Shown: positions 4,218 through 24,938 of the stretch, in pieces
How positions within the stretch are numbered: position 1 is the first letter of the stretch
How the letters are laid out: every line of letters begins with the position of its first letter
Origin: a virus
Taxonomy: Duplodnaviria > Caudoviricetes
IMG/VR virus record: IMGVR_UViG_3300010391_000186
Span: 1,947 to 65,946 of that record
Direction: 5' to 3' (one strand)
DNA: 64,000 bases
Notes under the pieces: generated by a model
Told to the model about the DNA's origin: nothing
The model's database searches: none
What the model saw: only the letters and a program-made list of their open reading frames with translations
Made by a program: the position numbers and the translations under genes

Positions 4218-4556
4218 ATGACGAATAAAGTTGTAAAAACAGCAGAAGTAGAAGTTATTCCTCTTCGTGAACTTCGTTTTGGAGATTTTATTCTATGGGG
4301 AAGATATAAAGTTCTTATTGTCAGTATTGATTATCAAAACAAAATCGTTACAGCAGCGCATCCAGTAGATACACTTAAACAAGTTTCTTCATATTATAGA
4401 ATCATAAACTGCATTGAAGAAAGACCAAATACAACATGTCCCGGGTGCGGAAAAATCATAGAAAGCCTTACTGATTCTGAATTTGATGAATTCTGTGCTC
4501 CAAGATGCAAAGATCTATACGAAGAAGGTATTTCAAAAGGAGAAATTTATGGTTGA
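4218..4556 (+). CDS. Hypothetical protein with C-terminal Zn-ribbon
   Basis: CPGC...FCAPRC. Confidence 0.55.
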   Translation: MTNKVVKTAEVEVIPLRELRFGDFILWGRYKVLIVSIDYQNKIVTAAHPVDTLKQVSSYYRIINCIEERPNTTCPGCGKIIESLTDSEFDEFCAPRCKDLYEEGISKGEIYG

Positions 4557-5586
4557 AGAATCAAAATCAGTTCAATGGTGTGATAAATACGAACCACATA
4601 CGCTTGATGAATATATTGGTCATGAAGAGCTTGTTGCAGCATTTAAAGCATATGTAGCAATACATCATATTCCAAATATGACTCTTGGAGGAGTGCCCGG
4701 CACAGGAAAAACAGCATTGGTCAAATGCTTCGCCCACGATCTTGGATACTTAGGATGGGATTTAGAAAATCCTGGAAAGTGGTATCCAATGCAAGCAGGA
4801 CAGTTTCAATTTCTTGATGCATCAAACGAACGTGGAATAGACATGGTACGTACCACACTCAAAGGACTTTCAGAAGATCCAACACTTGGCGGAGAAGTGC
4901 GTCTAATATGCTTGGATGAAGGAGATAATGTTACAGGAGACGCTCAAGCTGCAATGCGTGGAGTCATACAAAACAGTTCAAGCAATTCTCGTTTCATTCT
5001 CACAGGAAACTATCCAGAAGAATTTATTGCTGCAATCAATAGCAGATGTCCACTCAAAACAGTTCCACCACTTACAAGAAACGACCTAGCTACAATGATA
5101 AAGCGCATACAAATATCTGAGAAGTTTACTATAACAGACGAAGCTACCGAGTTTCTAATCACTGTTGCAAATGGTGATATGCGCTTAATGATAAATAAAT
5201 TGCAGGACGCAGCAATAACATCAGCTATGAACATAACAAAAAAAGATATAGGTTCAACTGTTGCAGACATTGAAATAGCAAAGAAAATCATAGAAGCAGC
5301 ACTTACAGACTTCAATAAAGCAAGAGAAATCCTCATAACAATTTATCAAAGCACAAAGAATCCAGGAGATATTCTCTCGAAGCTATACGATGCCACGTAT
5401 CTTGTTCCTTTTGTTCAGGATGCACAGCGCAACGAAATCCTTCAGCTCAAGCTTCGAACAAGAATGTCAGATGTTGATTATTACTTGTCTCAGAAAGGAA
5501 TAAATCACATAGTCCAGCTTGACGCTCTTCTAAGCTATATCAGGCTTCTTCCTTATATTTCAGTAAAGTGTCCAAAGGTGAGTTAA
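4549..5586 (+). CDS. rfcS: Replication factor C small subunit (clamp loader)
   Basis: WCDKYEP, GVPGTGKT, DASNERGID, LDEGD, AAMR and SRC motifs. Start chosen at the ATG after AGGAG. Confidence 0.92.
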   Translation: MVEESKSVQWCDKYEPHTLDEYIGHEELVAAFKAYVAIHHIPNMTLGGVPGTGKTALVKCFAHDLGYLGWDLENPGKWYPMQAGQFQFLDASNERGIDMVRTTLKGLSEDPTLGGEVRLICLDEGDNVTGDAQAAMRGVIQNSSSNSRFILTGNYPEEFIAAINSRCPLKTVPPLTRNDLATMIKRIQISEKFTITDEATEFLITVANGDMRLMINKLQDAAITSAMNITKKDIGSTVADIEIAKKIIEAALTDFNKAREILITIYQSTKNPGDILSKLYDATYLVPFVQDAQRNEILQLKLRTRMSDVDYYLSQKGINHIVQLDALLSYIRLLPYISVKCPKVS

Positions 5587-6002: not shown

Positions 6003-6555
6003 ATGATACTTTCAGATGTAGATATCAAAAATTACATAAAACTTGAAAAGCTCAAAATAAGTTCACCAAGAAGTCATTTACTTAATACTGATGGACTTTC
6101 AATACAACAGAATGGACTGGATTGCAGAATAGGAGATACAATAGCAGTAGATATCAAACTTGAAGAAGGAACTGTTATTGATACTCATAATCAGGAATCC
6201 ATTAACAGCAGATTCATGCAAATGGAATTTGAGAACTTTGTTGTCCCACCACACACGAATATCCTTCTTGTTACAGAAGAAGAATTTGAATTTCCTGATG
6301 ACTTAATGGCATTCTGTGGACTGCGTTCTTCGGTTGCAAGAAATGGATTCATTGCACCGATAACGATTGTAGATGCCGGCTTTAAAGGAACATTAACAAT
6401 AGAACTCAATAATGGTGGACACAATCCTATTAGAATATATAGAGGAGACAGATTCTTGCATGTAATATTTGCAAAGACAAACAGTCCAGTTCCCCTATAA
6501 TGGATTCTACACAGGACAAAGAATAGTTCATCTTCCAAAAACACTGGGTGATTAA
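6003..6555 (+). CDS. dcd: dCTP deaminase, interrupted by a +1 frameshift at CCCC 6492-6495
   Basis: MILSD, LRSSVARNG and VDAGFKGTLTIEL motifs. The 0-frame stops at 6500, but the +1 frame gives the canonical tail PYNGFYTGQ ending at 6555, directly before the next ATG. Confidence 0.85.
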
Positions 6556-10761: not shown

Positions 10762-10791
10762 AAGTCTTAAACAAAGCAAATCACTATATAA
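10762..10791 (+). promoter_or_regulatory. AAGTCTTAAAC motif plus TATA box
   Basis: Motif at 10762-10772, ctatataa at 10784, ATG at 10823. Confidence 0.65.
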
Positions 10792-10822: not shown

Positions 10823-11341
10823 ATGACATTATACACGCTGCATATTAAATCTGGAATGCATGATATAACTCCAGAAATACTAAATACTTTTCTACGATTG
10901 TCTGGATATGATGCAAGTATTTTTGAAGATATAAAGTTCAAAGGAAATGAACCAAAAGTAACACACGAATATAATATAATAGAATTTCACAACTTAGAGG
11001 AAGCACAAAAAGCTGAAAAAGAGCTTCGAGAAATGTTCTACTGTTATATTGTAAGGGAAGCTGAATTTGATAAAACTGGAATGACAAAAGCCAGACTATT
11101 AAATCTAACTTCTTTCAAAGAAAGTGGAAAATACTACGATAATTTCGATGTTGAAATATCATCAGATATTGATTTTGAACATGATTTTAATATTGTAAAA
11201 GCTATCCTCGATAAATATGAAAAGCTTCCAGAACACTTTATGTATCACGGTCACTATGCAAACAACGTTCCATTCATTATTCCGGCGCATATGAAAGCAT
11301 CGGATATGAAACCATATGTAAAAATCGGAGAATCAAAATGA
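10823..11341 (+). CDS. Hypothetical protein
   Basis: 172-aa ORF with promoter and RBS, overlapping the start of the clamp gene. Confidence 0.6.
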   Translation: MTLYTLHIKSGMHDITPEILNTFLRLSGYDASIFEDIKFKGNEPKVTHEYNIIEFHNLEEAQKAEKELREMFYCYIVREAEFDKTGMTKARLLNLTSFKESGKYYDNFDVEISSDIDFEHDFNIVKAILDKYEKLPEHFMYHGHYANNVPFIIPAHMKASDMKPYVKIGESK

Positions 11342-12228
11342 AAGCAAAAATATCAATATTAGTTCTACAAGAACTGATAAGAAAGACAAAGTGTAATAGC
11401 TTGATAAGTTCAGCAGTTATTAAACTTGAAGACAATGCGATATCCACAAAAGGTTCTGGAGTGGAACTTGCAGGAAAAATTGATGGACGTTTGTCCTTTG
11501 AAGTATCGTATCCGTGTGTCGTAGAAGAATCAGGAATCCTGCCAATTAAAGACATTTCAGACTTATTATCTAAGACTGAAGTCTTTGAAAAGGAAGATGT
11601 TGTTGATGCTTCTGTTGTGGACAATAAACTCATCATGGAAAGAGAAATTCCTCATAGAGTTATCACATACGATCTTGGAGATGCAAAAAACATTCCAACA
11701 TCATATAAAGGAAAAACAACCGTATTATTCAACAAGACCATACCAGCAGCAGAACTTACCCCCGAACAGCTTGCAGCGGGAGCAATCCCGGAATATAAGA
11801 TTCCTTCAGTAGTAATAGTCAATCCGTCTGGCAAGACAAAAGCAATTGAATTCACTGCAGAAGCAATTCTTGATTCAAATCAGCTTAAAGGATTTGCATC
11901 AGCAGCAGAAAAGATCTCGCCGCTCAAGATACCAATACAAATCAAAGAAGGACACTTGAACAGCGCAATAAAAGGAACTGGCACAGATATGGCAGATGAA
12001 ATCCGTGTTGATAAAGCAGAAGGTGAAGCACTTTCAAAATATGGAGTCCAGCTACTTGAACTATTCAAGGTTGGATTCGGAAACGCAACACTACGACTTG
12101 GAAATGAAACGTCGATCCATGTTCAATATCAACAGGATGAACAAAGATCAAATTATTTACTGGTTCCAAGCGGAAACACAGCACCACCAGCCCCGGCAAC
12201 TCCAGCAGCAAAGGAAAAAGCAAAATAA
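11338..12228 (+). CDS. PCNA-like sliding clamp
   Basis: About 300 aa with a two-domain alpha/beta pattern, SKYGVQLL and terminal YLLVP (PCNA S-x-Y...YxLAP). RFC and PolB are nearby. Confidence 0.7.
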   Translation: MKAKISILVLQELIRKTKCNSLISSAVIKLEDNAISTKGSGVELAGKIDGRLSFEVSYPCVVEESGILPIKDISDLLSKTEVFEKEDVVDASVVDNKLIMEREIPHRVITYDLGDAKNIPTSYKGKTTVLFNKTIPAAELTPEQLAAGAIPEYKIPSVVIVNPSGKTKAIEFTAEAILDSNQLKGFASAAEKISPLKIPIQIKEGHLNSAIKGTGTDMADEIRVDKAEGEALSKYGVQLLELFKVGFGNATLRLGNETSIHVQYQQDEQRSNYLLVPSGNTAPPAPATPAAKEKAK

Positions 12229-12577: not shown

Positions 12578-12844
12578 ATGTCAGGCATATTTGACGAAGA
12601 TATTGGAGATGGATTAATCATCCCCGAACGCCCTGACTTTTCTGATGATATCAGAAAGTTTGGAGCGCATACTGTATCAGAAAAAAGAGAAAATCTACAC
12701 TGCTGGTTTTATCTTGACTTCTATGCTGATCCTAAAAGATTTGCAGAAATAACCAGTATGCTCAAATCACATATAAACGGAACGCATCAGATAGATTCAG
12801 AATTCTTCTATAACATGATTAAGGAAAGATTCAATAAAGAATAA
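12578..12844 (+). CDS. Hypothetical protein (N-terminal SGIFDE motif)
   Basis: 88-aa ORF with a GGAG RBS. Confidence 0.6.
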   Translation: MSGIFDEDIGDGLIIPERPDFSDDIRKFGAHTVSEKRENLHCWFYLDFYADPKRFAEITSMLKSHINGTHQIDSEFFYNMIKERFNKE

Positions 12845-13144
12845 AATGAATAGGAAACAAATAACAGAATTCTTCCTAGATCAAAGCTATGTGTTAGGAA
12901 TGAATCCTTGGATATATAAAACACCAGAAGGATATTTCATAATACAAACATTACAACATGTAAAATCAGAATGGAAAGCAAGTGGAACAGAATATATTTT
13001 TGGAGAATAATATGAGATGCAGATATTCAGTATTGGTCAGTGGTATTGGAGAACCTTTTAACTTTTGCTTTCTAGCAACACTAACAGGAGTAAAACTGCC
13101 AGAATGCAACGGATTAAAAGACTGCTTCCAAAAGAGGACATAAC

Positions 13145-13435
13145 ACGGAATTTATAGATGATATTTCAGAAGCAAAGTGCAGAAAAATTGTTGAAGATAT
13201 AAGAAACTGCTGCGAAGAAACAGAGATCAAAAATATAGCTTCAATACTTTTAATACAATTTAGACAGAATGAAATCGATCCAATAACTGAAGAATATAAG
13301 CAAAAACTAATAGATGAATTCCTTGCATCTCCAGTATGGTTATCTTCAATTTCTGCACTGCATAAACCATTCTGTTCAAATCAAAAAGTATTTCAGTTTG
13401 AAATAAAGCTTAATTGTTTGGAGAAATCTGATTAA
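13145..13435 (+). CDS. Hypothetical 96-aa protein with apparent ACG start
   Basis: Stop-free frame fills the gap before the radical SAM gene. ACG follows the GAGGACA RBS and there is no in-frame ATG. Confidence 0.55.
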   Translation, partial: TEFIDDISEAKCRKIVEDIRNCCEETEIKNIASILLIQFRQNEIDPITEEYKQKLIDEFLASPVWLSSISALHKPFCSNQKVFQFEIKLNCLEKSD

Positions 13436-13436
13436 A

Positions 13437-14873
13437 ATGACAATAACACTTCGACCAAGATATATGTATAGAGATTCCTGTAAAGAATGTAAAGGACACA
13501 GATCAAACTGTGGTGGAAAGAATGTTTGCGCTCCAGTAAAAAAGAAGCTGCGATCATACAACGGAATAAGACTTACAGCAGACGGTTTTGACTGTGCTTT
13601 ACCTGTCACGATAGACAGTCATAGTCAATGTTCATATGCTTGTATATACTGTTTCAGTCCTAATATCAGTGGACATAGAGAAGGTGAAGACCTTCTTACA
13701 GGACAAACATCACTTAACGATATCGAAAACATGTTCTCTGGAAAAGGTAAAAACATGGAAAATCTGTTCACAGCACTGAAGTTTAAAAACAGAATGAATG
13801 GTTATCCTTGTCCGGTGCAACTTGGAGGACTTACAGATCCACTTGATAACATCGAAAGAAATCAGGGATGGTTCTTAGAGTTTGTTCGTCTTGCTCAAAA
13901 ATACAAGCAACCAGTCCGTATAAGCACAAAAGGAAATATGTTTCTAGAACAAGAATACTTGGATGCTGTAGCAAAGACGCCAGAGCTATTCTGGGTAAAC
14001 TTTTCAATTATTAGTCCAGATGATAAACTGATGAAACTTGTTGATATCGGGGCACCACCACCTTCAGAAAGAATTCAGTGTATGAAAAACTTAACTGATA
14101 TCAAAGTTAAAACCGGACTTCGCTTCAGACCGATTATTCCTGGAATCAGCGATGCTACAAAAGATTATCCAAAAGCATTCTCGGACTTAATAAATATGGC
14201 TGCTGATGCTGGTGCAAGAAACATTTCATACGAAGTTGTATTTCTTCCACTACTTGATCCTAAAGCAGTTCCAAAATGGGAAGCAATAGAAAAATTAACA
14301 GGAATTCCGTATTGGGAGATATATCGAAAGTTTGGAAAGAAGCTACCATGTAATAGAGCATCATATATCTGGACAGAACAGATAATGTTCGCTATACATA
14401 GAGCAGCAAAGAAAAGAGAAATGTTCGTTGGTATTAGTGATCCTTTATGGAAGCAACTAAATGATGGTGGATGCTGCTGTGGAATTCCTCCAACAGATCC
14501 AGTATTCGGAAACTGGCAAAGAGAAAGCGCAACAAATCAGTTGATTGAAGCACGAGATACAGGAAAGCTTCTAACATCAAAAGACGTAATTCCAGCATGG
14601 GCATTAATGACAAAAGCAGATCAAATGTATCGACCACCGATAGGTCCCGCTGGTGCTACATTCCGTCAATACTTTATGTGGGGAGATAAAATGCAGGAAC
14701 AGTGGAATGATTTAACCTGTGAAAGAGGTCCCTTACAATACTTCCAGGGTGCGCTTAGACCAGTTGAACGTAAAGAAGACGGAGAAGTTGTTTTCAAGTA
14801 TGTTGGTCTTGAACGTAGAAATCCAAAAGAAACATCATACTGGAATATTAAGGAAGATGAAGATGAAAAGTGA
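13437..14873 (+). CDS. Radical SAM enzyme (spore photoproduct lyase-like clade) with extra Cys clusters
   Basis: CSYACIYC, DPLDNIER, RISTK, N-terminal CKEC..C..C and internal GCCCG. Confidence 0.85.
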   Translation: MTITLRPRYMYRDSCKECKGHRSNCGGKNVCAPVKKKLRSYNGIRLTADGFDCALPVTIDSHSQCSYACIYCFSPNISGHREGEDLLTGQTSLNDIENMFSGKGKNMENLFTALKFKNRMNGYPCPVQLGGLTDPLDNIERNQGWFLEFVRLAQKYKQPVRISTKGNMFLEQEYLDAVAKTPELFWVNFSIISPDDKLMKLVDIGAPPPSERIQCMKNLTDIKVKTGLRFRPIIPGISDATKDYPKAFSDLINMAADAGARNISYEVVFLPLLDPKAVPKWEAIEKLTGIPYWEIYRKFGKKLPCNRASYIWTEQIMFAIHRAAKKREMFVGISDPLWKQLNDGGCCCGIPPTDPVFGNWQRESATNQLIEARDTGKLLTSKDVIPAWALMTKADQMYRPPIGPAGATFRQYFMWGDKMQEQWNDLTCERGPLQYFQGALRPVERKEDGEVVFKYVGLERRNPKETSYWNIKEDEDEK

Positions 14874-15053
14874 AACAAAAGTCTATATATATTTTTTATG
14901 TGCAGCACTTACATTCTATATAGGTATCGCACTTGCAATAGATAATCATAATATTATTTCAATTTCAATTATTGCTATTGCAACAGTATCAATTTCATCG
15001 TTTTTACTGTGGAGAATCACAAAGATTAAATTTGATATTAAGAAGAGAAAAAC

Positions 15054-15449
15054 ATGAATCCAAAATTCAAGGGATGGGATACAAAAAGAAATAAAATGTA
15101 TTCAGCATCGGAACTAGGTATTGACGAACTAACTATTAATCCAGATGGTCGAGGATTTGTAAATGTAAGCAGCACGGATCAAAAACTAAGTCAATACATG
15201 CAGCATATAATTCCTCTTCAGTTTACTGGACTGAAAGACAAAAACAACACAGAAATATATAAAGGAGATGTATTACAATCAAACGACATGAGTATTCATG
15301 TTGTGGAATATAACATATGCAGATGGTCAGCACGTTTAATAAGAAGAAGAATGGAAAGGTGGCCTGCTCAATTCCTAGACTGTGATTATATGGGATGGAT
15401 AGTAATCGGAAACATATATGAAAATCCAGAATTAATCAAAGGTGTTTGA
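15054..15449 (+). CDS. YopX-family phage protein
   Basis: KFKGWD...LQFTGLKDKNNTEIYKGD...VIGNIYENPEL. Confidence 0.9.
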   Translation: MNPKFKGWDTKRNKMYSASELGIDELTINPDGRGFVNVSSTDQKLSQYMQHIIPLQFTGLKDKNNTEIYKGDVLQSNDMSIHVVEYNICRWSARLIRRRMERWPAQFLDCDYMGWIVIGNIYENPELIKGV

Positions 15450-15451
15450 AT

Positions 15452-16639
15452 ATGGAAAGCATGTTTGATGAACCACTATATGAACAAGAATGTAAATGGG
15501 CACTTATTGAAGCTCCAATACCAAACGCACCTGAAGGAAAATATATCTCTCAGATACCAAGCCCAAACAATCTTCTTACAGTATCAAGCGCATTGAAAGC
15601 AAGTGGACATACAGATATAAAATTATATCAGTTCTTACAAGAAAGACATCCAAGAATAGTCGTTGCAGAGAACATCGTTTACAATCTAGGTGAAGCTACA
15701 TGCATGGATTATCTCTACAACTATGCTCTAGAATATCTTGAATTACTAAGAAGAACAAATCCACATTCAAAAATATACTTAACTGGATATCATGCATGGT
15801 TGCACCTTGAAAACTTCAACGACTTCATAGTAACTTCACCACAGTCTTTTGAAAATGATATTGTTGGAACTGTATCAACAACAGAATGGCATAATGACTG
15901 GTCAGTAAACGACTGGGAATTTATGAAATCCAAAGTGAGTTCAACAAGCAGTGGAATTAGATGCACTTTTAGATCAACAAGAAGATGTCCGCATCACTGC
16001 AGAATGTGTCCAGTAAATACCGTATATGGTCACACCAATATTCGATATTCTACCGAATGGGTCATGGAAGAAATAAAAACACTATACAACAAATACAATA
16101 TCCGTGAAATAGGATTTCTTGATGATAACCTGTTCTATAATCGTGTTTGGGGAAAAGAACTTCTCAACAAAATAATAGCAGCAAACTTAAAAGGTCTTAA
16201 ATTTACATTTGAAGAAGGACTGGATGTTCCAACAGCACTTGATGAAGAACTAATAATACTTCTAAAGAGAGCGCATTTTCATCATATAAAACTTGGTGTT
16301 GAGGCACTTGATTCAAAAACACTTGACTTTATACAAAAGCCTTATAGAGATCCAGAAGATGCTATCAAAGCGATAAAACTGCTTCAAAAACATGAACTTA
16401 ATCCAACCTGCTTTATCTGTATTGGATTCCCAACAAACACTGAAGAAAGCATTCAGCATGATATTGATATACTTGTAAATTTAAAAGTGAAACTAAGAGT
16501 TCAAATTTTATGGGCATATCCCGGTATTGATTTTGCAGGAAAATCTCTATCACATGAAAAACTAAAACACTTCCAAAAAGAAGCAATGGATAGAACTGGA
16601 AGTAGTTCGTGGAGCCACAAACATGATAAGTCTATTTGA
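15452..16639 (+). CDS. B12-binding-type (class B-like) radical SAM enzyme
   Basis: N-terminal B12-binding-like region, STRRCPHHCRMC, GFLDDNLF, LGVE and IGFP motifs. Confidence 0.8.
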   Translation: MESMFDEPLYEQECKWALIEAPIPNAPEGKYISQIPSPNNLLTVSSALKASGHTDIKLYQFLQERHPRIVVAENIVYNLGEATCMDYLYNYALEYLELLRRTNPHSKIYLTGYHAWLHLENFNDFIVTSPQSFENDIVGTVSTTEWHNDWSVNDWEFMKSKVSSTSSGIRCTFRSTRRCPHHCRMCPVNTVYGHTNIRYSTEWVMEEIKTLYNKYNIREIGFLDDNLFYNRVWGKELLNKIIAANLKGLKFTFEEGLDVPTALDEELIILLKRAHFHHIKLGVEALDSKTLDFIQKPYRDPEDAIKAIKLLQKHELNPTCFICIGFPTNTEESIQHDIDILVNLKVKLRVQILWAYPGIDFAGKSLSHEKLKHFQKEAMDRTGSSSWSHKHDKSI

Positions 16640-17729
16640 TGAACCGTTATCTGAAGATGAACCTTGTAGAATATATGGTAACAAAATCATTTTCACAAAA
16701 ACTTTTTCAGAACAATCAGAAACAGAAAAAGAAGTTTCGTTACAGTATATTCTAGACAATGTCTTCGCAGGAGACTTCTGGTATGATTATATCAACGAAG
16801 AATTTTCACACGAAGTCAGAAAACTAGATATGTTCAAACCAAAAGAAATTCTTCATGGAACAACAATAAGCAGAAATAATCTTTGTTCACCTGTTGCAAG
16901 TAGTTTTCATCCACACATCTTGGAAATCAATAATGGAAAGTATAATTCTCCAAATGAAACTTTAGAAGATACAGTTCATCTTAAAAAATGTATTTCAAAT
17001 TATCTTAAAATTACTTCTGGGTCAATAAATTGTTCCGATGCTATACATATATTGAGAACAGCTCGGAAAACGCAAATGGTGAGTAATTTCCGACCTACTG
17101 TTGCAAAGCTAATATACGAAACGTATGGTAACAATGGCTCAGTTCTAGATCCTTGTATGGGTTATGGAGGAAGATTGCTAGGAGCATGGTGTAGTAATAT
17201 CAGCAGCTACACAGGAATAGATCCATGCACAAAAACTTTTGACGGAAATATAAAACTTCAAAACCGTTTGATAGAACTTACTTCTTACAAAGGAAGTATC
17301 ACAGAAATTATACCCAGACCAACAATAATACTACACAAACTTCCATTCGAAGACTTTACCACTAACGAAAAGTTTGACCTTGTATTTACATCTCCACCAT
17401 ACTTCAACACAGAGAAATATTCTAATGAAGATACGCAGTCATGGAAAAGATATCCAACATATTACGTCTGGGTGGATAAATTCCTTGAAATTCTTATCCA
17501 CAACGCACATACATTTCTAAAACCGGGCGGAGTCTTTGCAATAAATATGAAAGATGATCCACTTGCAAAATACAACATCTGGCGAGATGTAATCCGTCTA
17601 AGTAAGAAGTATTTCGGAGAACCCGAAACAATATTGTATATGGAAATGCCAGCCCTACCACTGATTAAAAAGAACTGCGCCAACAGCATAAAAGGTGAAC
17701 CGATAGGAATATTCAGGAAGAAATTATGA
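16623..17729 (+). CDS. DNA amino-methyltransferase (m4C/m6A)
   Basis: SAM-binding VLDPCMGYGGRLLG and catalytic FTSPPYF. Confidence 0.85.
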   Translation: MISLFDEPLSEDEPCRIYGNKIIFTKTFSEQSETEKEVSLQYILDNVFAGDFWYDYINEEFSHEVRKLDMFKPKEILHGTTISRNNLCSPVASSFHPHILEINNGKYNSPNETLEDTVHLKKCISNYLKITSGSINCSDAIHILRTARKTQMVSNFRPTVAKLIYETYGNNGSVLDPCMGYGGRLLGAWCSNISSYTGIDPCTKTFDGNIKLQNRLIELTSYKGSITEIIPRPTIILHKLPFEDFTTNEKFDLVFTSPPYFNTEKYSNEDTQSWKRYPTYYVWVDKFLEILIHNAHTFLKPGGVFAINMKDDPLAKYNIWRDVIRLSKKYFGEPETILYMEMPALPLIKKNCANSIKGEPIGIFRKKL

Positions 17730-19786
17730 AGTATCTTAGAAGAAATATTCTGGACATTGAAGTCAAAGTTGATAAAGAATTTCCTCACCCAGAACAAGCA
17801 AGATATCCATTCAGTGCAATCACAATATGGGATTCTTTCACAAATCATTACTATTCTCTTGTTGTTCGTGATTCACCTCTACCACTTCAGAAAGTTGTAA
17901 TGAGTCCAGAATGGGATGTCTATTATTGTAACAACGAAGTGATTCTTGCAACAAATTTCGTCAAGCTCACTCAAATGCTTAATCCAGATACGTGGGAAGG
18001 ATTTTTTAGCAAAACATTTGACTTTCCATATATTTGTAATCGCTTGCGAAACATTGAAATTGATCCAAATCTATTATCACCAGGAGGACATTTCACTTGT
18101 AAAAACAGACCAAGTTCTTCTGGACTCCATTTGCTTGACATAGTTGAAGCTGACAAAAAGTTCAAACAGCGTTCAAGTTATTCCTTAAAATTAATAGCAG
18201 AAGAAGAAGATCTTCCAGTCAAGAAGCTAGAATTTGATATAGTTGGAAACAACTACACCCCCGAACAGCTTGCAGCATATAATAAAATAGATGTTGAAGT
18301 TCCTCTCGCTCTTGATAATAAAATGCAGCACATAAAACGATATGTTAATCGCTGGCAACTTGCAGGACTTGAAAGCATAGACAAAGCAATGTCAAATTCA
18401 ATTATTGTTGATACTGTAATGCTTCGAGAAGCTAAAAAAGCAGGAATACTTCTTCCGTCAAAACCAGACAAAACAGAACAAGCGCAAACAGAATCAGAAG
18501 CTGAAGACATAACTGGTGGAATGGTGTTTGAACCAATTATTGGGATTCACGATTGGGTAGCGGATGATGATCAGTCTAGATTTTATCCAAACTTAATATT
18601 CTTACTACGAATGTCTCCTGAAAATATTTCATCAGAAGGAACTCTAATTTCAGCAAATGGCACACGATTTATAGATAATACAGAAGCATTCTTACCACGT
18701 ATAATTAGACATTTCTTTAAAGAACGAGATAGAATTCAAGCAGAAAAAGCACTGCTTACACCCGACAATCCGTATTATTGGAAGCTGCACGAAGAAGATG
18801 AGAATGCAAAATTCCTTCTTAATAGTGTTGCAGGAGTCTTTGGACAACCATCTTTCCGTCTATACGAACCACGTATTATAGACAGCATAACAACATCTGG
18901 TCAATACTTAATGATAACAGGAAAAGCATATCTTGAATCACTAGGTGTTCAGGTTGTTTATGGAGATACAGATGCGCTTCATAGAAAATTGATGGGAGTA
19001 ACAAATATTGAAGAAGCAATAAAGCAAGGTAAAGAAATAAACGCAAAGCTTAATGAAAAGCTTCCAATATGGGCACAAGAAAAGTTTAATGTAAAAGATG
19101 CTTCCTCTATCAAAATCGTTTTTGAGAAAGTATTTAGACGCATCATGTATATCCCCAACGAAAAAGGAAAGCCTGTTAAAAAGCGATATGCAGCACGTCT
19201 AGTCTACGAAAAAGGAAAGATAACAGATCAGATTTATATTCGTGGGTTTGAAACAAGACGTTCTGATGCATCCATAATATCAAAAGACTTGCAGAACAAT
19301 ATCTTCAAGAAAATTCTATACGCAGAAGATGTTGAAGAAGTAAATAAAGAAATAATCACATACATTAGAGACTTAATTGCACAATTTCCAGATAGATCTT
19401 TATCAGAAATTGCAATCCCGTGCGGATTCTCAAAGGATCTTTCAGCATACGGTGGACTCAATAAAAATGGTGGAAAGAAAGGATTAGATCCAGAAGTTCG
19501 TGGAGCCATCTATAGCAACACGCATCTTTTCACAAATTTTGGATCAAACACAAAAGCAAAAATGCTATATATCAATAAAATAGAAGGAATAAATTCCATA
19601 GGAGAACCTTTACCACATACTGAAGTTATCGTTTTTGAAGATGAAGCAAAGCTACCAAAAGTTGAAGTAAACTACGAAAAGATGATAGATGCAACAGTAA
19701 GAAAGAAAATCGAAAGAATTCTCTCTGTTGCAGGAATAGACTGGAACCAAATAGTAGGTGAAGAACAATCAATGTTCAATTTCTAA
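17726..19786 (+). CDS. polB: Family B DNA polymerase (exonuclease and polymerase domains, lacking the NTD)
   Basis: ExoI DIEV, ExoII FDFPY, ExoIII YNKID. Motif A DQSRFYP, motif B KFLLNSVAG, motif C YGDTD, KKRY, GFETRRSD. C-terminal PIP-like EQSMFNF. Confidence 0.95.
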   Translation: MKYLRRNILDIEVKVDKEFPHPEQARYPFSAITIWDSFTNHYYSLVVRDSPLPLQKVVMSPEWDVYYCNNEVILATNFVKLTQMLNPDTWEGFFSKTFDFPYICNRLRNIEIDPNLLSPGGHFTCKNRPSSSGLHLLDIVEADKKFKQRSSYSLKLIAEEEDLPVKKLEFDIVGNNYTPEQLAAYNKIDVEVPLALDNKMQHIKRYVNRWQLAGLESIDKAMSNSIIVDTVMLREAKKAGILLPSKPDKTEQAQTESEAEDITGGMVFEPIIGIHDWVADDDQSRFYPNLIFLLRMSPENISSEGTLISANGTRFIDNTEAFLPRIIRHFFKERDRIQAEKALLTPDNPYYWKLHEEDENAKFLLNSVAGVFGQPSFRLYEPRIIDSITTSGQYLMITGKAYLESLGVQVVYGDTDALHRKLMGVTNIEEAIKQGKEINAKLNEKLPIWAQEKFNVKDASSIKIVFEKVFRRIMYIPNEKGKPVKKRYAARLVYEKGKITDQIYIRGFETRRSDASIISKDLQNNIFKKILYAEDVEEVNKEIITYIRDLIAQFPDRSLSEIAIPCGFSKDLSAYGGLNKNGGKKGLDPEVRGAIYSNTHLFTNFGSNTKAKMLYINKIEGINSIGEPLPHTEVIVFEDEAKLPKVEVNYEKMIDATVRKKIERILSVAGIDWNQIVGEEQSMFNF

Positions 19787-19994
19787 CTATGACAAAAATC
19801 TACATGGATAGATTTGGTTCAATGAGACAAAAAACAGAGCATCACGAAAAAGTGCTGCTTAAAGATGGACTTCATTTTGTACGTCAATGGATAAACTGTC
19901 CTCATAATCGAAAAGGAATATGCAAGTGTATAATTTTAGAAGATTCTATCCATGTTATATACTGTTTCTGTGGATGATACAATCGTGATACAAT

Positions 19995-20489
19995 ATGATA
20001 CATAAAGTAAACGGAATACTAGAAATAAATCATGTTTGTCGTGGATACTGTAAGCTTCCTTATCCTAATCATACAGAAGGATGTCCAAACTTCAATAAAA
20101 ATATAGAATGTCCTCCAAAATCATCCGTGGTGGAAGATGTTTTTGATTTAAATCGCGAACTGTTCTTTGTTGTTGAAGAATTCAATTTGAAAGAACATAT
20201 TACACATATGAAGTTTAATCATCCACCGTGGACAGAATTACAGCTTAGAAATCTTTTATACTGGCAAGGCGGTGTCCGAAAAAGACTTAAAGAAAAAGTA
20301 GAACAGTTTATGCAGCACGATATGATTTATACGCTGCTGCCAGAGTCTATGGGTGTAATGGTAATTAACACAGCACTTAAACTCAGAATACCAATTGAAA
20401 GAAATCCAAAAGAAAAAGTGTTTAAAATCGCTCTTGTTGGATATCCAAAAATAGAGCAGCGTAATGAGGAATCAATGTTTGAATTTTAA
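19995..20489 (+). CDS. DUF2284-like Cys-rich metal-binding protein
   Basis: C..YC...GCPNF...CPP and PESMGV..INT. Ends with EESMFEF. Confidence 0.6.
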   Translation: MIHKVNGILEINHVCRGYCKLPYPNHTEGCPNFNKNIECPPKSSVVEDVFDLNRELFFVVEEFNLKEHITHMKFNHPPWTELQLRNLLYWQGGVRKRLKEKVEQFMQHDMIYTLLPESMGVMVINTALKLRIPIERNPKEKVFKIALVGYPKIEQRNEESMFEF

Positions 20490-20500
20490 GGAGAAAAGAT

Positions 20501-20773
20501 ATGAGTAATTTAGTAAACTATAAAAAAGAATTTGATGTATTCAAAGAAGAACAGTGGAATAAAATTCTATCAGTTCAGCATAAGAATTATTCTCCAGATT
20601 ATGCATTTACAAAAGGTCATTTTATAGAAGAAATTCTTGAATGCTTTCAAATAAAAGGAACTGCTGAAGGAGAAACAGTAAAAAATATTCTTATGTCTAA
20701 AGAAATAGATGATACTGAACTTGTAGATACTGCAAATATGTCTTTCGCAGTAAAGATATTTAGACCAAAATAA
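20501..20773 (+). CDS. MazG/DUF550-like all-alpha NTP pyrophosphohydrolase
   Basis: HFIEEILE ... ELVDTANM (ExxE...ExxD). Confidence 0.55.
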   Translation: MSNLVNYKKEFDVFKEEQWNKILSVQHKNYSPDYAFTKGHFIEEILECFQIKGTAEGETVKNILMSKEIDDTELVDTANMSFAVKIFRPK

Positions 20774-20990
20774 AATGATTCAAACCATGACAATATTTAT
20801 AGACTATCTATTAACATATCTGCTTATAGGATATGCTCTTTCCATAACAGTATGCTATAAACAGATAATTGAATCTATCAAAATATGTTGGTTTAATATT
20901 TTTTCTGAAATATTTGCTGTTTCAGTATTATCTTTTATATATCCACTTGCTATCGTTTCATACTTGTATTTCATAATAAGATATCCAAAT

Positions 20991-21019
20991 AAGTCTTAAA
21001 CAAAAGCAGTATTTAAATA
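20991..21019 (+). promoter_or_regulatory. AAGTCTTAAAC motif plus TATA box
   Basis: Motif at 20991-21001, tttaaata at about 21012, ATG at 21051. Confidence 0.65.
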
Positions 21020-21050: not shown

Positions 21051-22028
21051 ATGCTAGTTGATAAATATGCATCACAAACACTAAATGATATCAAGCTGGA
21101 CGATAAAGCTATAGATACTATTATTGCTTGGATCAATAGCTGGAATCGTGGATTACCTTCACAGGAAAAACCAGCTCTTCTTTTAACAGGATTCCCAGGA
21201 ACAGGAAAGACAACTGCTGCTCGCTGCATATGTAATGATGCTGAATGGCTTCTTCTAGAACTCAATGCTTCCGATTCACGAAGAAAAGAAGATTTATCTA
21301 AATTTACTCCTGAAAGATCGCTTATGGGAAACATTACTTGCATACTATTTGATGAAGCAGATTCTTTTGGGGATAAAAAAGAAGATAAAGAAAAAAATGA
21401 AAGTAGTGAAATCAAAGAAAAAAGCGAAAGGAACAAAGATAAAACAGGAATTCCTTATGTTGTAGCAATGATAAGAGAAAGGAGATTTCCAATAATACTT
21501 ACTGCAAACAACGCTTTTAAAGTACCAAAAGAAATTAAAGCACTGTGTGAATCATTGCAGATCTATCGTCCTTCTGTAAATGCATTAAAAGCTTATCTAT
21601 ATGATATTTGTAAGAAGGAAGGACTCAACCCGACAAACGATATTCTTAATGCAGCAGCGCAATGCCAAGACTATAGAATGGGTCTAAGCATGATAGAGAA
21701 CAATATAATTCTATCTAAAAATATCATAAAAACTGGAATTGAGGAAACTGTTAGAAATCTATTGCTGAATAATGAAGCAAATATAGAAAACCCAAAAAAG
21801 ATTCTATACAATCTAGATGCAAACATTTCAAGATTATACAGTCCATTAGAACTATATGAAACATATAATATTCTTTCTCGTGTTGATATTCTTAGAAGAC
21901 GTGGTCAAACAAAACACGCTATAACATTATTGAAAACTATTCCAAAAACAACACTTGAAGAATTTGAATTGATTCCCCCAATTTATATTGAAAGAAAGAA
22001 AGCTGTGATCAAAAATGATAACTTGTGA
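21051..22028 (+). CDS. rfcL: Replication factor C large subunit
   Basis: LVDKY, GFPGTGKT, ELNASDSR, FDEAD and PIILTAN motifs. Confidence 0.88.
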   Translation: MLVDKYASQTLNDIKLDDKAIDTIIAWINSWNRGLPSQEKPALLLTGFPGTGKTTAARCICNDAEWLLLELNASDSRRKEDLSKFTPERSLMGNITCILFDEADSFGDKKEDKEKNESSEIKEKSERNKDKTGIPYVVAMIRERRFPIILTANNAFKVPKEIKALCESLQIYRPSVNALKAYLYDICKKEGLNPTNDILNAAAQCQDYRMGLSMIENNIILSKNIIKTGIEETVRNLLLNNEANIENPKKILYNLDANISRLYSPLELYETYNILSRVDILRRRGQTKHAITLLKTIPKTTLEEFELIPPIYIERKKAVIKNDNL

Positions 22029-24263: not shown

Positions 24264-24938
24264 ATGAATCTAACACAAAAAGATATTGAAAAAGGAAAGC
24301 GCATACTTAAATTTGAAAAACTTTCAGAAGTAACTTCAGATTCTGTCTTTGCTGCTGGAATATACTGCATATTATCATCACGAGAATTCTTCAAAAAGCA
24401 AGTTCAAGTCTATCATAATTTAGAAATAAATGAAATGATAACACCAAAATCGATACTTGCCGATACGAAAAAACTGCGTGAATGTGTTGCTCATATTCGT
24501 GCTCCAAATCAAACACACGATAGACTTATTGGATATGCATACTGGTGGTCTCATTCTGATATTCCAAAGCGTCTTATAAAAGACGCAAATAATGGACACG
24601 ATAATGGAATGTTCCTTAGGAATAAACTAGCAGTAGAAGTTCCCGGGGTTGGTCTTAAAATTGCATCATTGATCCTAATCAAAGCAGGATACGAAAACGT
24701 TTCTGCGCTTGATGTCTGGCTTCTACGTTGGCTCAAGGATAAGTTTGGATTTATTCCTAGTGGAGGAAAAGAAAACATTACGAATCATAAAGAGTATATT
24801 AAAGCGGAAAAGCTACTCGAACCCATAGCAGAAGAATTCAATGCAACTCAAGCACTAACCCAATGCTCAATATGGGGCAAGTCTGCAAATTGGATGAGTC
24901 ATTATCAAAAACAGCCTGAAGAATTTCGAGTTGATTAA
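24264..24938 (+). CDS. HhH-GPD N-glycosylase/DNA lyase (archaeal Ogg2-like)
   Basis: CILSS...RNKL...VPGVGLKIAS...GYENVSALDVWLLR...Y...E. Confidence 0.75.
   Translation: MNLTQKDIEKGKRILKFEKLSEVTSDSVFAAGIYCILSSREFFKKQVQVYHNLEINEMITPKSILADTKKLRECVAHIRAPNQTHDRLIGYAYWWSHSDIPKRLIKDANNGHDNGMFLRNKLAVEVPGVGLKIASLILIKAGYENVSALDVWLLRWLKDKFGFIPSGGKENITNHKEYIKAEKLLEPIAEEFNATQALTQCSIWGKSANWMSHYQKQPEEFRVD

What the first reader, a model, noticed from the sequence alone, without database searches (positions are those of the whole stretch)
13437..20773. Candidate new DNA base-modification system built around the viral polymerase
Seen: an SPL-clade radical SAM enzyme, a B12-type radical SAM enzyme and an amino-MTase lie directly upstream of polB. 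The last two form an overlapping chain with it (16623/16639, 17726/17729). A DUF2284-like Cys protein and a MazG/DUF550-like hydrolase follow polB. Established: viruses that substitute a base pair biosynthetic enzymes with an all-alpha pyrophosphohydrolase that removes the competing canonical dNTP. I recognise no PurZ, DpdA/Que or hmU/hmC genes here. Inference: a radical/cobalamin-dependent nucleotide or DNA modification outside the known pathways, consistent with a B12-rich host (the RNR is also B12-dependent).
Basis: partly seen in the sequence, partly recalled or inferred. Interest (0 to 1): 0.9.

Follow-up and report, generated by a model that had tools for sequence, protein, structure and literature searches.

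The report
Radical SAM enzymes beside viral polymerase
A complete 66-kb virus from sediment, probably of an archaeon, packs two iron-sulfur "radical SAM" enzymes, a DNA methyltransferase and a metal-binding protein around its DNA polymerase; they look like separately acquired enzymes that work on DNA and may ride on the virus's sliding clamp, not one new pathway for replacing a base.

Summary
All the genes are present at the stated coordinates. The SPL-clade radical SAM (rSAM1), the SPPY amino-methyltransferase, PolB, the DUF2284-like protein and the B12-dependent RNR are confirmed.

rSAM2 has class-B ("B12-type") architecture by fold only; cobalamin binding is unproven. The "MazG-like" 90-aa protein matches only a recalled motif and fails every HMM and fold test.

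The genes are not one conserved pathway:
- rSAM1 travels with a small partner (12578-12844). In tailed phages that partner is fused to a ParB domain and sits beside the terminase.
- rSAM2 is an accessory gene of a family found only in viral and metagenome contigs. It is absent from the whole 96%-complete sister genome. It lies next to a DNA methyltransferase in 3 of 11 contexts.
- The DUF2284-like protein occurs in 80 viral loci, beside varied polymerases.

What unites them here is one block between promoter-like motifs, plus a shared terminal S-[LM]-F-[DN]-[EF] peptide on rSAM2, the methyltransferase, PolB and the DUF2284-like protein. This peptide resembles the T4 polymerase clamp tail.

Most likely these are clamp-tethered enzymes that modify or repair DNA after replication, not a dNTP-pool substitution. 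No chemistry is shown.

This scan had already noted ParB-partnered SPL-like cassettes and clamp-docking tails on other DNA.

The parts
10762..10772 (+). Promoter-like motif AAGTCTTAAAC opening the block. The next copy is at 20991-21001, with none between.
   Evidence: 8 matches at <=1 mismatch against a mean of 2.37 in shuffles; 0 of 100 shuffles reached 8.
11338..12228 (+). Viral PCNA-like sliding clamp (296 aa).
   Evidence: the Atlas model has TM 0.81-0.83 (by row) to archaeal PCNA clusters. No Pfam or PHROG hit.
12578..12844 (+). 88-aa partner of rSAM1. It equals the C-terminal domain of the ParB_N-fused partner found in tailed phages.
   Evidence: tblastn finds it directly upstream of the rSAM1 homologue in 7 of 12 other loci (L002-L013) at E<=1e-4, 8 at 1e-3. 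Alignment A5 shows the shared motif RPDF..NWFYVEFY..H.ID. ParB_N was found in 4 of 8 partner ORFs tested.
13118..13435 (+). Conserved open frame of about 100 codons ending 1 nt before rSAM1. It has no ATG/GTG/TTG start; ACG stands where the sister genome has ATG.
   Evidence: 83% aa identity to L001 over 101 residues.
13437..14873 (+). rSAM1: SPL-clade radical SAM enzyme, 478 aa. Cluster motif CSYACIYC, four invariant N-terminal Cys, and an invariant GCCCG / DPVFGNWQ C-terminal region.
   Evidence: 306 homologues at E<=0.001 (48-89% identity in the best 120 listed). hhalign to phage M6 gp53: probability 85.7%, E 5.5e-6, 172 columns.
15054..15449 (+). YopX-family protein, function unknown. Only 52% identical to the sister genome, where its neighbours are about 90% identical.
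   Evidence: E 1.2e-21.
15446..16639 (+). rSAM2: radical SAM enzyme of class-B architecture (N-terminal Rossmann-like domain plus core, CPHHCRMC). Probable start is ATG 15452. The N-terminal tail reads MESMFDEPL.
   Evidence: Only three Cys are invariant in 27 aligned sequences. Residues 1-10 have mean pLDDT 49.
16623..17729 (+). Amino (N4-C or N6-A) DNA methyltransferase. Motif I (VLDPCMGYGG) lies before motif IV (SPPY). The N-terminal tail reads MISLFDEPL.
   Evidence: A homologue with the same motif order and SPPY abuts the rSAM2 homologue in L019.
17726..19786 (+). Family B DNA polymerase; C-terminus ...EEQSMFNF.
   Evidence: The T4 gp43 C-terminus reads ...ASLDFLFG.
19789..19977 (+). 62-aa Cys-rich protein, unknown function. 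Conserved in the sister genome (90%).
   Evidence: no family hit.
19995..20489 (+). DUF2284-like metal-binding protein (invariant C19, H26, C30, C39, H76). C-terminus ...ESMFEF.
   Evidence: The C-terminal S[LMI]F[DN]F-type tail is present in 7 of the 25 aligned sequences (window protein included).
20501..20773 (+). 90-aa four-helix acidic protein with invariant K21, H40, E44, E47, F49, E73, D76. A metal site is likely. It was not shown to be MazG-like.
   Evidence: (pLDDT 93).
20775..20999 (+). 74-aa hydrophobic protein closing the block.
   Evidence: 89% identity in L001.

Best explanation
The stretch is the core of one replication block (promoter-like motifs at 10762 and 20991) of a complete 65.9-kb sediment virus with archaeal-type replication genes. 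Around PolB it holds four separately inherited accessory modules that act on DNA, not one pathway.

1. The SPL-clade radical SAM enzyme rSAM1 with its 88-aa partner. In tailed phages this pair exists as a ParB-fused partner plus the enzyme, beside the terminase.
2. rSAM2, an accessory radical SAM enzyme of class-B architecture. Its family is found only in viral and metagenome contigs and recurs beside DNA methyltransferases.
3. An SPPY amino-methyltransferase.
4. A DUF2284-like Cys/His metal protein that accompanies many phage polymerases.

rSAM2, the methyltransferase, PolB and the DUF2284-like protein carry the same terminal peptide, S-[LM]-F-[DN]-[EF], of the kind that tethers T4 polymerase to its clamp.

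Most likely mechanism (inferred): these proteins dock on the virus's own PCNA-like clamp and act on freshly replicated DNA. That would mean amino-methylation plus one or two radical-SAM reactions (modification or repair) on the polymer.

Shown here: gene content, family or fold assignments, which genes travel together, and the peptide pattern.
Inferred: clamp docking, DNA as the substrate of both radical SAM enzymes, and any chemistry. A dNTP-pool base substitution is unlikely.
For: Families and folds.

One block: motif copies at 10762 and 20991 with none between. GC3 is uniform across the genes, rSAM2 included.

rSAM1 and its partner:
- The partner is found upstream in 7 of 12 other loci at E<=1e-4; L012 and L013 give identical hits and look like one virus.
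- ParB_N is present in 4 of 8 partner ORFs tested.
- TerL lies downstream in 4 of 4 tested.
- Alignment A5 places the 88-aa protein on the partner's C-terminal domain.
- rSAM1 is distantly homologous to M6 gp53, an SPL-like enzyme that modifies DNA (PMC8989533 passages).
- An Asn_synthase (PP-loop) domain is fused to a family member (P0287) and is encoded next to one in L008. This points to biosynthesis more than repair.

rSAM2:
- 36 full-family relatives, none with a source name that places it in a cell.
- 0 close hits among 185,579 species genomes.
- A DNA MTase is adjacent in 3 of 11 contexts: the window, L019 (SPPY N6_N4, E 2e-20) and L025 (C5 MTase, E 4e-69, followed by a PolB exonuclease domain). 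The other neighbours are a weak TS-like protein, DnaG, HD, a 5'-3' exonuclease, EndoVII and a GIY-YIG endonuclease.
- Contigs of 13,136 and 3,869 bp appear in both the 68% rSAM1 cluster and the 76% rSAM2 cluster. So a more distant relative probably keeps both genes close together.

Peptide:
- 6 motif hits in 114 ORFs; 5 are terminal and all lie in 12578-20489.
- 2000 shuffles gave a mean of 0.056 terminal hits and a maximum of 2.
- All are kept in the sister genome.
- The tail is kept in 7 of the 25 aligned DUF2284-like sequences, window protein included.
- The T4 gp43 tail is ...ASLDFLFG; that it binds the clamp is recalled knowledge.
- The rSAM2 tail is modelled as flexible.
Against: - rSAM2 is missing from the whole 68-kb, 96%-complete sister genome, which keeps every other gene. 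Whatever rSAM2 does is therefore dispensable, and the MTase works without it.
- The rSAM2 and MTase N-terminal peptides are copies of one another: window 15458-15490 and 16629-16661 both align to L001 11900-11932. They count as one event.
- The partner's N-terminal SGIFDED aligns with a [ST]G[FY]xxxE[IL] segment of the ParB-fused partners. It may be inherited rather than a clamp tail.
- The motif was defined after it was seen.
- 24 of 27 aligned rSAM2-family proteins have no such tail.
- Two of the 11 rSAM2 contexts hold RNA-repair genes: RtcB and cREC_REC.
- No HMM recognises a cobalamin domain in rSAM2 or its 36 relatives. By my recollection the best structural match, AprD4, uses no cobalamin.
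- rSAM1 relatives are named only 'DNA repair photolyase' by a source (17 of 120 listed).
- There is no measurement of any DNA modification.
Confidence: 0.5

Rival explanations
1. One reading: one coherent pathway, dependent on radical chemistry and cobalamin, that makes a non-canonical nucleotide. A MazG-like pyrophosphohydrolase removes the competing canonical dNTP and PolB inserts the new base.
For: The genes lie in one block with overlapping stop and start codons. The 90-aa protein family has invariant [DE]ExxE...ExxD residues on helices 2 and 4. A dCTP deaminase and a B12-dependent RNR lie upstream. No known pathway genes are present.
Against: - The 90-aa protein has no MazG, MazG-like or DUF550 HMM hit in it, in 0 of 14 relatives, or anywhere in the genome. 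It has no fold match either.
- rSAM2 is absent from the sister genome.
- rSAM1, the DUF2284-like gene and rSAM2 each have their own unrelated sets of neighbours elsewhere.
- The 90-aa gene is found beside none of the 79 other DUF2284-like loci.
- No enzyme that handles nucleotides (kinase, synthetase, TS-like) is present in the block.
Confidence: 0.07
2. A repair and maintenance set. rSAM1 with its partner is an SPL-like lyase that reverses a DNA lesion (for example a photoproduct-type or radical cross-link in packaged DNA). The DUF2284-like protein and the downstream OGG-type glycosylase are repair factors. The MTase is ordinary anti-restriction, and rSAM2 is an unrelated accessory gene.
For: - The SplB-type families are the best hits for rSAM1, and the only name any source gives is 'DNA repair photolyase'.
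- The block is surrounded by repair and replication genes: PD-(D/E)XK nuclease, ERCC4-like protein and an N-glycosylase/DNA lyase at 24264-24938.
- The DUF2284-like gene sits beside PolA-UDG fusions in 6 loci and beside Mre11-like phosphoesterases.
- rSAM1-like genes abut DUF2284-like genes in L078 and L096.
Against: - rSAM1 is 478 aa and carries invariant extra Cys motifs (C15, C18, C25, C31, C305, C346-348). By my recollection canonical SPL (about 340 aa) lacks them.
- It scores far below the cut-offs of the SplB-type equivalogs (74 against 360 bits).
- The fusion to, and adjacency with, an Asn_synthase PP-loop enzyme suggests biosynthesis.
- The habitat is sediment, where UV damage is unlikely.
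Confidence: 0.2
3. rSAM2 does not act on DNA. It methylates or otherwise alters RNA (tRNA or rRNA), a cofactor or a protein, as most class-B-type enzymes do. It sits near PolB only because accessory genes collect in a variable spot of the replication module.
For: - The nearest named models are BchE, PhpK, lipid and hopanoid enzymes and MiaB-type enzymes. Structural matches include MiaB and RimO with RNA bound.
- RtcB and cREC_REC are neighbours in 2 of 11 contexts.
- The YopX-to-rSAM2 interval is the least conserved part of the block.
- rSAM2 is dispensable in the sister genome.
Against: - There is no MiaB-type auxiliary cluster: only the three core Cys are invariant.
- All scores are far below every family cut-off.
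- The family is absent from 185,579 species genomes.
- DNA MTases of two different classes are directly adjacent in 3 of 11 contexts.
- In this virus it bears the same tail as the MTase and PolB.
Confidence: 0.2

Closest known systems
Pseudomonas phage M6 gp53, an SPL-like radical SAM N-alpha-glycinylthymidine isomerase (Lee et al. 2021, PMC8989533; abstract and 10 passages read)
   Same: A phage-encoded SPL-clade radical SAM enzyme of almost the same length (480 against 478 aa) that acts on DNA after replication. The core aligns with the cluster motifs in register. In M6 it also sits next to a terminase subunit gene, as rSAM1 relatives do in tailed phages.
   Different: Only the core is homologous (hhalign probability 85.7%, 172 columns; BLASTP E 0.048). 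M6 needs 5-hmdU made by a TS-like hydroxymethylase. This virus has no TS-like gene, and neither do any of 11 rSAM1-bearing viral records. rSAM1 has its own invariant Cys motifs and a ParB-type partner.
Spore photoproduct lyase SplB and the PA0069 / Rv2578c 'DNA repair photolyase' families (COG1533)
   Same: Best HMM hits (E 8.3e-21 and 3e-14); CX3CX2C cluster; DNA is the known substrate of SPL (recalled).
   Different: Scores of 74 and 53 bits against cut-offs of 360 and 430. About 140 extra residues with an invariant GCCCG / DPVFGNWQ region and four N-terminal Cys. No PDB sequence match.
Class B (cobalamin-dependent) radical SAM enzymes (TsrM, MgmA, TokK, CysS, OxsB) and the look-alike AprD4
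   Same: The full-length predicted fold matches: AprD4 E 6e-17 (TMq 0.70), MgmA 1.2e-15, TsrM 1.4e-13. The domain order is an N-terminal Rossmann-like domain followed by the core.
   Different: No PF02310 hit in rSAM2 or its 36 close relatives, whereas 29 of the next 30 distant hits have one. All known substrates are small molecules, peptides or proteins. A DNA substrate would be new. Cobalamin use cannot be tested here.
Clamp clients with terminal docking peptides: T4 gp43 on gp45, and archaeal/eukaryotic PIP-box proteins including replication-coupled DNA methyltransferase (recalled knowledge)
   Same: A short terminal hydrophobic/aromatic peptide shared by the polymerase and other DNA enzymes encoded beside a PCNA-like clamp and two clamp-loader genes.
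   Different: Two of the tails are N-terminal. The clients would include a radical SAM enzyme. Binding is untested.
Z-genome cluster PurZ / DatZ / MazZ
   Same: Accessory genes placed next to the polymerase gene (phiVC8 annotation).
   Different: No PurZ-type gene, no MazG-type HMM hit, and no sign of chemistry at the nucleotide-pool level.

Membership tests
SPL clade of radical SAM (COG1533 / SplB-like) | CX3CX2C cluster and significant similarity to SplB-type models | tested here: met
   CSYACIYC; PF04055 at 32.2 bits, above the 29.5 cut-off; PA0069 E 8.3e-21 and Rv2578c E 3e-14.
PA0069 / Rv2578c equivalogs | Score above the curated NCBIfam cut-off | tested here: not met
   74.4 against 360 bits; 52.8 against 430 bits.
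M6 gp53-type thymidine-hypermodification isomerase | Orthology to gp53 | tested here: inconclusive
   hhalign probability 85.7%, E 5.5e-6, core only; BLASTP E 0.048.
M6 gp53-type thymidine-hypermodification isomerase | Co-occurrence with a 5-hmdU supply (TS-like hydroxymethylase) | tested here: not met
   PF00303 is absent from the genome and from 0 of 11 rSAM1-bearing records.
Class B cobalamin-dependent radical SAM | N-terminal Rossmann-like (B12-type) domain followed by the radical SAM core | tested here: met
   Model pLDDT 90.9; full-length Foldseek matches to MgmA, TsrM, TokK, CysS, OxsB and AprD4.
Class B cobalamin-dependent radical SAM | Recognisable B12-binding domain (PF02310) | tested here: not met
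   No hit in rSAM2 or in the precomputed domains of its 36 close relatives.
Class B cobalamin-dependent radical SAM | Binds cobalamin | not testable with these tools
   Needs purified protein.
MiaB / RimO methylthiotransferases | Three conserved N-terminal Cys for an auxiliary cluster | tested here: not met
   Only C181, C185 and C188 are invariant in 27 sequences.
N6/N4 amino DNA methyltransferase | Motif IV (S/D/N)PP(Y/F), SAM motif I and a Pfam score above the cut-off | tested here: met
   FTSPPYF and VLDPCMGYGG; PF01555 at 31.9 against 26.7 bits.
MazG / all-alpha NTP pyrophosphohydrolase (including DUF550) | EExxE...ExxD metal motif (recalled) | tested here: met
   E44, E47, E73 and D76 are invariant and position 43 is D or E in 14 sequences.
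MazG / all-alpha NTP pyrophosphohydrolase (including DUF550) | HMM or fold similarity | tested here: not met
   Pfam gave none at E<=10; 0 of 14 members hit; PF03819, PF12643 and PF04447 are absent genome-wide; best Foldseek E is 1.8 (PDB) and 1.6 (BFVD).
DUF2284 (PF10050) | Pfam score above the cut-off | tested here: inconclusive
   The window protein scores 21.8 against 25 bits over 22 residues; 34 of 85 homologues have a precomputed PF10050 hit.
Clamp (PCNA / gp45) client | Terminal docking peptide shared with the polymerase | tested here: met
Clamp (PCNA / gp45) client | Physical binding to the clamp | not testable with these tools
   Needs a binding assay.
Z-genome (PurZ) and 7-deazaguanine (DpdA) systems | PurZ-type synthetase or TGT-type transglycosylase | tested here: not met
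   PF00709 and PF01702 are absent at E<=1.

The most novel reading that the evidence does not exclude
This virus decorates its DNA by radical chemistry at the replication fork. rSAM2 would be the first radical SAM enzyme of cobalamin-type architecture to act on DNA, for example by C-methylating or extending a base that the neighbouring methyltransferase marks. The widespread rSAM1-partner pair would be a second radical DNA modifier, carried along DNA by a sliding protein: ParB in phages, PCNA here. Both products would be DNA modifications not yet described.
Probability: 0.2. Interest if true: 0.9.

Novelty: new variant of a known kind. Interest (0 to 1): 0.58.

Why it matters
To my knowledge only one radical SAM enzyme (M6 gp53) has been shown to install a DNA modification (the 2021 paper, PMC8989533, calls it the first).

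This stretch points to two uncharacterised radical SAM families of viral and metagenome contigs whose gene company suggests DNA as the substrate:
- a very well conserved SPL-like enzyme (306 relatives at E<=0.001; 48-89% identity in the best 120 listed) with a ParB-type partner;
- a class-B-type enzyme that keeps turning up beside DNA methyltransferases.

Nature also supplies a control. A sister genome with about 90% protein identity in the shared neighbouring genes (YopX 52%) lacks rSAM2. Native long-read kinetics from one sediment sample could therefore show whether rSAM2 leaves a mark on DNA.

The shared terminal peptide gives a simple, testable model of DNA modification coupled to replication in an archaeal-type virus.

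Tried and rejected
Searches and tests that gave nothing useful:
- tblastn of rSAM2 against 50,697 phage records found no match. rSAM1 gave one weak partial hit. PolB gave only hits of about 25% identity to haloarchaeal tailed viruses and T4-like phages.
- Single-protein scans of viral contigs with rSAM2 and with PolB found nothing beyond the sister contig.
- The genome-contig scan with the rSAM2 profile gave one 24%-identity hit only.
- The ESM Atlas had no usable hit for the 90-aa protein.
- I fetched phiVC8 as a possible MazG-type comparison, but PF03819 does not match it, so no positive control was obtained.
- Complex prediction with the clamp (1-285) and rSAM2 residues 1-40 gave no verdict: score 0.00, controls not run. 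This is no evidence either way.
- The look-up of sequencing runs found only the likely source sediment metagenome, kept as contigs, and no RNA holder was listed. Read laying was not used, so there is no evidence on expression or modification.

Literature. Searches found no paper in the held library on a B12-type radical SAM in viral DNA modification, on a ParB plus SPL-like pair, or on clamp-tethered viral modification enzymes. I saw the listings only. DUF2284 occurs in two papers (listing only). Supplements are closed; Supplementary Figure S15 of PMC8989533 (gene co-occurrence) might bear on how far gp53 relatives were surveyed.

Readings rejected:
- MiaB-type methylthiotransferase: no auxiliary Cys.
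- M6-type pathway: no TS-like gene.
- Recent foreign origin of rSAM2: its GC and GC3 match its neighbours.

Full report
WHAT THE GENOME IS

The window is bases 1947-65946 of a 65,946-bp virus record with direct terminal repeats, rated 100% complete. Nearly all long ORFs are on the + strand and there are no tRNA genes.

Its replication genes are of the archaeal or eukaryotic type:
- two RFC-like clamp loaders (4483-5586 and 21051-22028);
- a protein whose Atlas model matches archaeal PCNA clusters at TM 0.81-0.83 (11338-12228);
- a family B polymerase;
- an adenosylcobalamin-dependent RNR, NrdJ (TIGR02504, 564.6 bits against a cut-off of 400);
- a dCTP deaminase (phrog_1663, E 2.4e-37).

The only sequencing run that holds the stretch is a sediment metagenome, probably its source. 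An archaeal host is an inference.

CHECK OF THE OBSERVATION

rSAM1 (13437-14873) has CSYACIYC. It hits Radical_SAM, and its best NCBIfam hits are the SplB-type families PA0069 (E 8.3e-21) and Rv2578c, far below their equivalog cut-offs.

rSAM2 (15446-16639; probable start ATG 15452) has CPHHCRMC. It hits only the core of BchE, PhpK and other B12-rSAM models, and has no PF02310 hit. With a 27-sequence alignment it folds confidently (pLDDT 90.9). The model matches over its full length:
- AprD4 (E 6e-17, TMq 0.70);
- MgmA (1.2e-15);
- TsrM (1.4e-13);
- MiaB and RimO;
- OxsB, CysS and TokK.

So the class-B architecture (an N-terminal Rossmann-like domain plus the core) is real, but cobalamin binding is not shown. 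By my recollection the top match, AprD4, does not use cobalamin. Only the three core Cys are invariant, so it is not a MiaB-type enzyme.

The methyltransferase passes the Pfam N6_N4_Mtase cut-off. It has motif I (VLDPCMGYGG) before motif IV (SPPY). That SPPY is commoner in N4-cytosine enzymes is recalled; the target base is open.

The Cys protein falls just short of the DUF2284 cut-off (21.8 against 25 bits), but 34 of its 85 homologues carry a precomputed PF10050 hit.

The 90-aa ORF is the weak point of the observation:
- It has 13 relatives in 1.84 billion representatives.
- Invariant residues are K21, H40, E44, E47, F49, E73 and D76. This reads [DE]ExxE, 25 intervening residues, ExxD, on helices 2 and 4 of a confident four-helix model.
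- This looks like the MazG signature as I recall it.
- Pfam finds nothing at E<=10.
- None of the 14 family members hits a MazG-type family.
- PF03819, PF12643 and PF04447 find nothing in the genome at E<=10.
- Foldseek finds nothing in PDB or BFVD; the best E-values are 1.8 and 1.6.

There is no TGT/DpdA, no PurZ-type synthetase, no ThyA-type enzyme and no ThyX. There are exactly two radical SAM genes.

DO THESE GENES TRAVEL TOGETHER?

The closest relative is IMG/VR contig L001 (68,011 bp, 96% complete). It is syntenic at 75-98% protein identity, with YopX at only 52%, and it lacks rSAM2: YopX runs straight into the methyltransferase. The rSAM2 family profile finds nothing anywhere in that record.

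The gap is bounded by a repeat. Window 15458-15490 (the start of rSAM2) and 16629-16661 (the start of the MTase) both align to L001 11900-11932. So the two N-terminal peptides, MESMFDEPL and MISLFDEPL, are copies of one another. The difference is either a deletion between the repeats or an insertion that duplicated them.

Cluster tables favour a loss:
- Contigs of 13,136 and 3,869 bp appear both among the 68%-identical rSAM1 relatives and among the 76%-identical rSAM2 relatives. A more distant relative therefore probably keeps both genes within 3.9 kb.
- The >=90% rSAM1 cluster sits on five contigs (139,940, 71,465, 15,478, 5,757 and 65,946 bp), while the >=90% rSAM2 cluster sits on this genome only.

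rSAM2 is thus a patchy accessory gene. Its GC and GC3 equal those of its neighbours.

THE rSAM1 MODULE

rSAM1 has 306 relatives at E<=0.001. The 120 listed are mostly about 440-550 aa (two are about 805 aa) and 48-89% identical. Seventeen of the 120 are named 'DNA repair photolyase' by JGI, and none has any other name.

Twelve other viral loci, L002-L013, were fetched; L012 and L013 look like one virus. Across these:
- None encodes a relative of PolB, the MTase, rSAM2 or any other window protein except the 88-aa ORF 12578-12844. That ORF lies directly upstream in 7 loci at E<=1e-4, or 8 at 1e-3.
- There the match is the C-terminal end of an ORF of about 210 aa, which carries a ParB_N domain in 4 of 8 tested.
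- The alignment shows the shared RPDF..NWFYVEFY..H.ID domain.
- A terminase large subunit lies downstream in 4 of 4 tested.

So the conserved unit is [ParB-type partner][SPL-like enzyme] at the head of the packaging module. In this virus the partner has lost its ParB domain, and the genome has no ParB_N at all.

rSAM1 has invariant extra cysteines: C15, C18, C25, C31, C305 and C346-348 in GCCCG. It has no PDB sequence match.

The closest characterised protein is phage M6 gp53. This is an SPL-like enzyme that isomerises N-alpha-glycinylthymidine in DNA, described as the first radical SAM enzyme that installs a DNA modification (PMC8989533, passages read). The homology is distant: hhalign probability 85.7%, E 5.5e-6, 172 columns. 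The 5-hmdU supply that M6 needs is absent here and in 0 of 11 rSAM1-bearing records.

Two observations lean towards biosynthesis rather than repair. One family member is fused to an Asn_synthase PP-loop domain (P0287). L008 encodes such a protein between the partner and the enzyme (E 6.8e-12).

THE rSAM2 FAMILY

The family has 36 close relatives (38-76% identity). Most are full-length (P0036 and P0037 are short fragments), all are from metagenome sources, and none has PF02310. Of the next 30 hits, most cover about half of the query and 29 carry PF02310. The profile found one IMG/VR locus, 14 metagenome loci and no close hit in one genome from each of 185,579 species.

Eleven contexts have at least one flanking ORF:

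| Context | Neighbours of the rSAM2 homologue |
|---|---|
| Window | SPPY methyltransferase, overlapping downstream |
| L019 | SPPY N6_N4 methyltransferase (E 2e-20; 30% identical to the window's) abutting upstream |
| L025 | C5 methyltransferase (E 4e-69) overlapping downstream, then a PolB exonuclease domain |
| L028 | weak thymidylate-synthase-like ORF (E 6e-4, below the cut-off) |
| L023 | 2-hydroxyacid dehydrogenase and a DnaG-like primase |
| L024 | RtcB |
| L017 | cREC_REC |
| L021 | HD_4 |
| L029 | 5'-3' exonuclease |
| L022 group | GIY-YIG endonuclease and endonuclease VII |
| L020 | flank not searched |

A DNA methyltransferase is therefore the immediate neighbour in 3 of 11 contexts, in both gene orders and from two enzyme classes. 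This is suggestive but not proof, because methyltransferases are common in such modules. Two contexts point instead to RNA repair.

THE DUF2284-LIKE PROTEIN

Its invariant residues are C19, H26, C30, C39 and H76, plus an LLYWQG motif. The profile found 80 viral loci. Of the 79 that are not the sister contig:
- 1 holds a relative of this PolB;
- 3 hold an rSAM1-like gene, adjacent in L078 and L096;
- 2 hold the MTase (E<=1e-5; 3 at E<=1e-3);
- 0 hold the 90-aa gene.

The commonest neighbours are a PolA-UDG fusion (6 loci), an HD protein (6 loci) and an Mre11-like phosphoesterase (5 loci). It is a general protein of replication modules, not a marker of base modification.

WHAT TIES THE GENES TOGETHER IN THIS VIRUS

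Two things tie them together.

So the clamp, the partner, rSAM1, YopX, rSAM2, the MTase, PolB, the Cys protein and the 90-aa ORF form one block.

- [SG][LMI]F[DEN][EFD] occurs 6 times in 114 ORFs.
- Five occurrences are at a terminus, all within 12578-20489: the partner (N), rSAM2 (N), the MTase (N), PolB (C) and the Cys protein (C).
- 2000 residue shuffles gave a mean of 0.056 terminal hits and never more than 2.
- The tails are kept in the sister genome.
- Seven of the 25 aligned DUF2284-like sequences (the window's own protein included) keep the tail.
- The rSAM2 tail is modelled as flexible.
- T4 polymerase ends in ...ASLDFLFG; that this tail binds the gp45 clamp is recalled knowledge.

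Cautions:
- The motif was chosen after it was seen.
- The rSAM2 and MTase tails are one duplication.
- The partner's SGIFDED aligns with a [ST]G[FY]xxxE[IL] segment of the ParB-fused partners, so it may be inherited rather than a clamp tail.
- 24 of 27 rSAM2-family proteins have no tail.
- Binding is untested.

READING

The best-supported picture is a replisome block that has collected independent enzymes acting on DNA. Several of them share the polymerase's docking peptide and so probably work on new DNA from the sliding clamp.

It is a parallel, not a demonstration, that the rSAM1 partner is fused in phages to ParB. ParB is itself a DNA-loading, sliding protein (recalled).

The single-pathway picture, the dNTP-clearing hydrolase and the cobalamin dependence are not supported.

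I found no paper on any of this in the held library.

The scan itself has earlier notes on other DNA. One describes a ParB-partnered SPL-like cassette (e1-1283956), which my reproduce independently. Others describe clamp-docking tails on viral modification enzymes (e1-6122746, e1-5542279, e1-6003495), which I did not check.

VERDICT

This is a new variant of a known kind: viral DNA-modification and repair enzymes, with M6 gp53 as precedent. Two uncharacterised radical SAM families are worth testing, and a natural rSAM2-minus control genome is available.

Noticed in passing
L001:14543-15704 (sister contig); window 18966-18968 is the matching point: The sister genome's PolB carries an insert of about 1.16 kb, read in frame, inside motif C (YGD|TD). 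It ends in ...HN before T, which looks like an intein. The window's PolB has none.
   Followed up: partly
window 13118-13435: A conserved frame of about 100 codons ends one base before rSAM1. It is 83% identical to the sister genome but has no ATG/GTG/TTG; the window has ACG where the sister has ATG. It is either a non-canonical start or a recently silenced small gene.
   Followed up: partly
window 12846-13010: A 54-aa ORF lies in a stretch of about 165 bp that the sister genome lacks.
   Followed up: no
window 6003-6500: The virus encodes a dCTP deaminase (phrog_1663, E 2.4e-37) and a B12-dependent RNR, but has no ThyA-type or ThyX thymidylate synthase anywhere in the complete genome.
   Followed up: partly
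P0287 (809 aa) and L008:9139-9957: Relatives of rSAM1 are fused to an Asn_synthase (PP-loop) domain or encoded next to one. This hints that the family takes part in an ATP-dependent biosynthetic step.
   Followed up: partly
L078:5129-6930, L096:8676-10414, L107:1492-4796: Distant rSAM1-like genes (22-28% identity, near full length) lie directly before or close to DUF2284-like genes in three unrelated viral contigs. There may be a functional link between these two families.
   Followed up: partly
L076:6374-9106 and five further loci: The DUF2284-like gene often follows a fused uracil-DNA-glycosylase / family A polymerase gene.
   Followed up: partly
window 15054-15449 and 14719-15057: The interval between rSAM1 and the methyltransferase is the variable spot of the block. 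YopX is 52% identical to the sister genome (its neighbours are about 90%). A small membrane ORF is only partly shared, and rSAM2 is present or absent.
   Followed up: no
   Followed up: no
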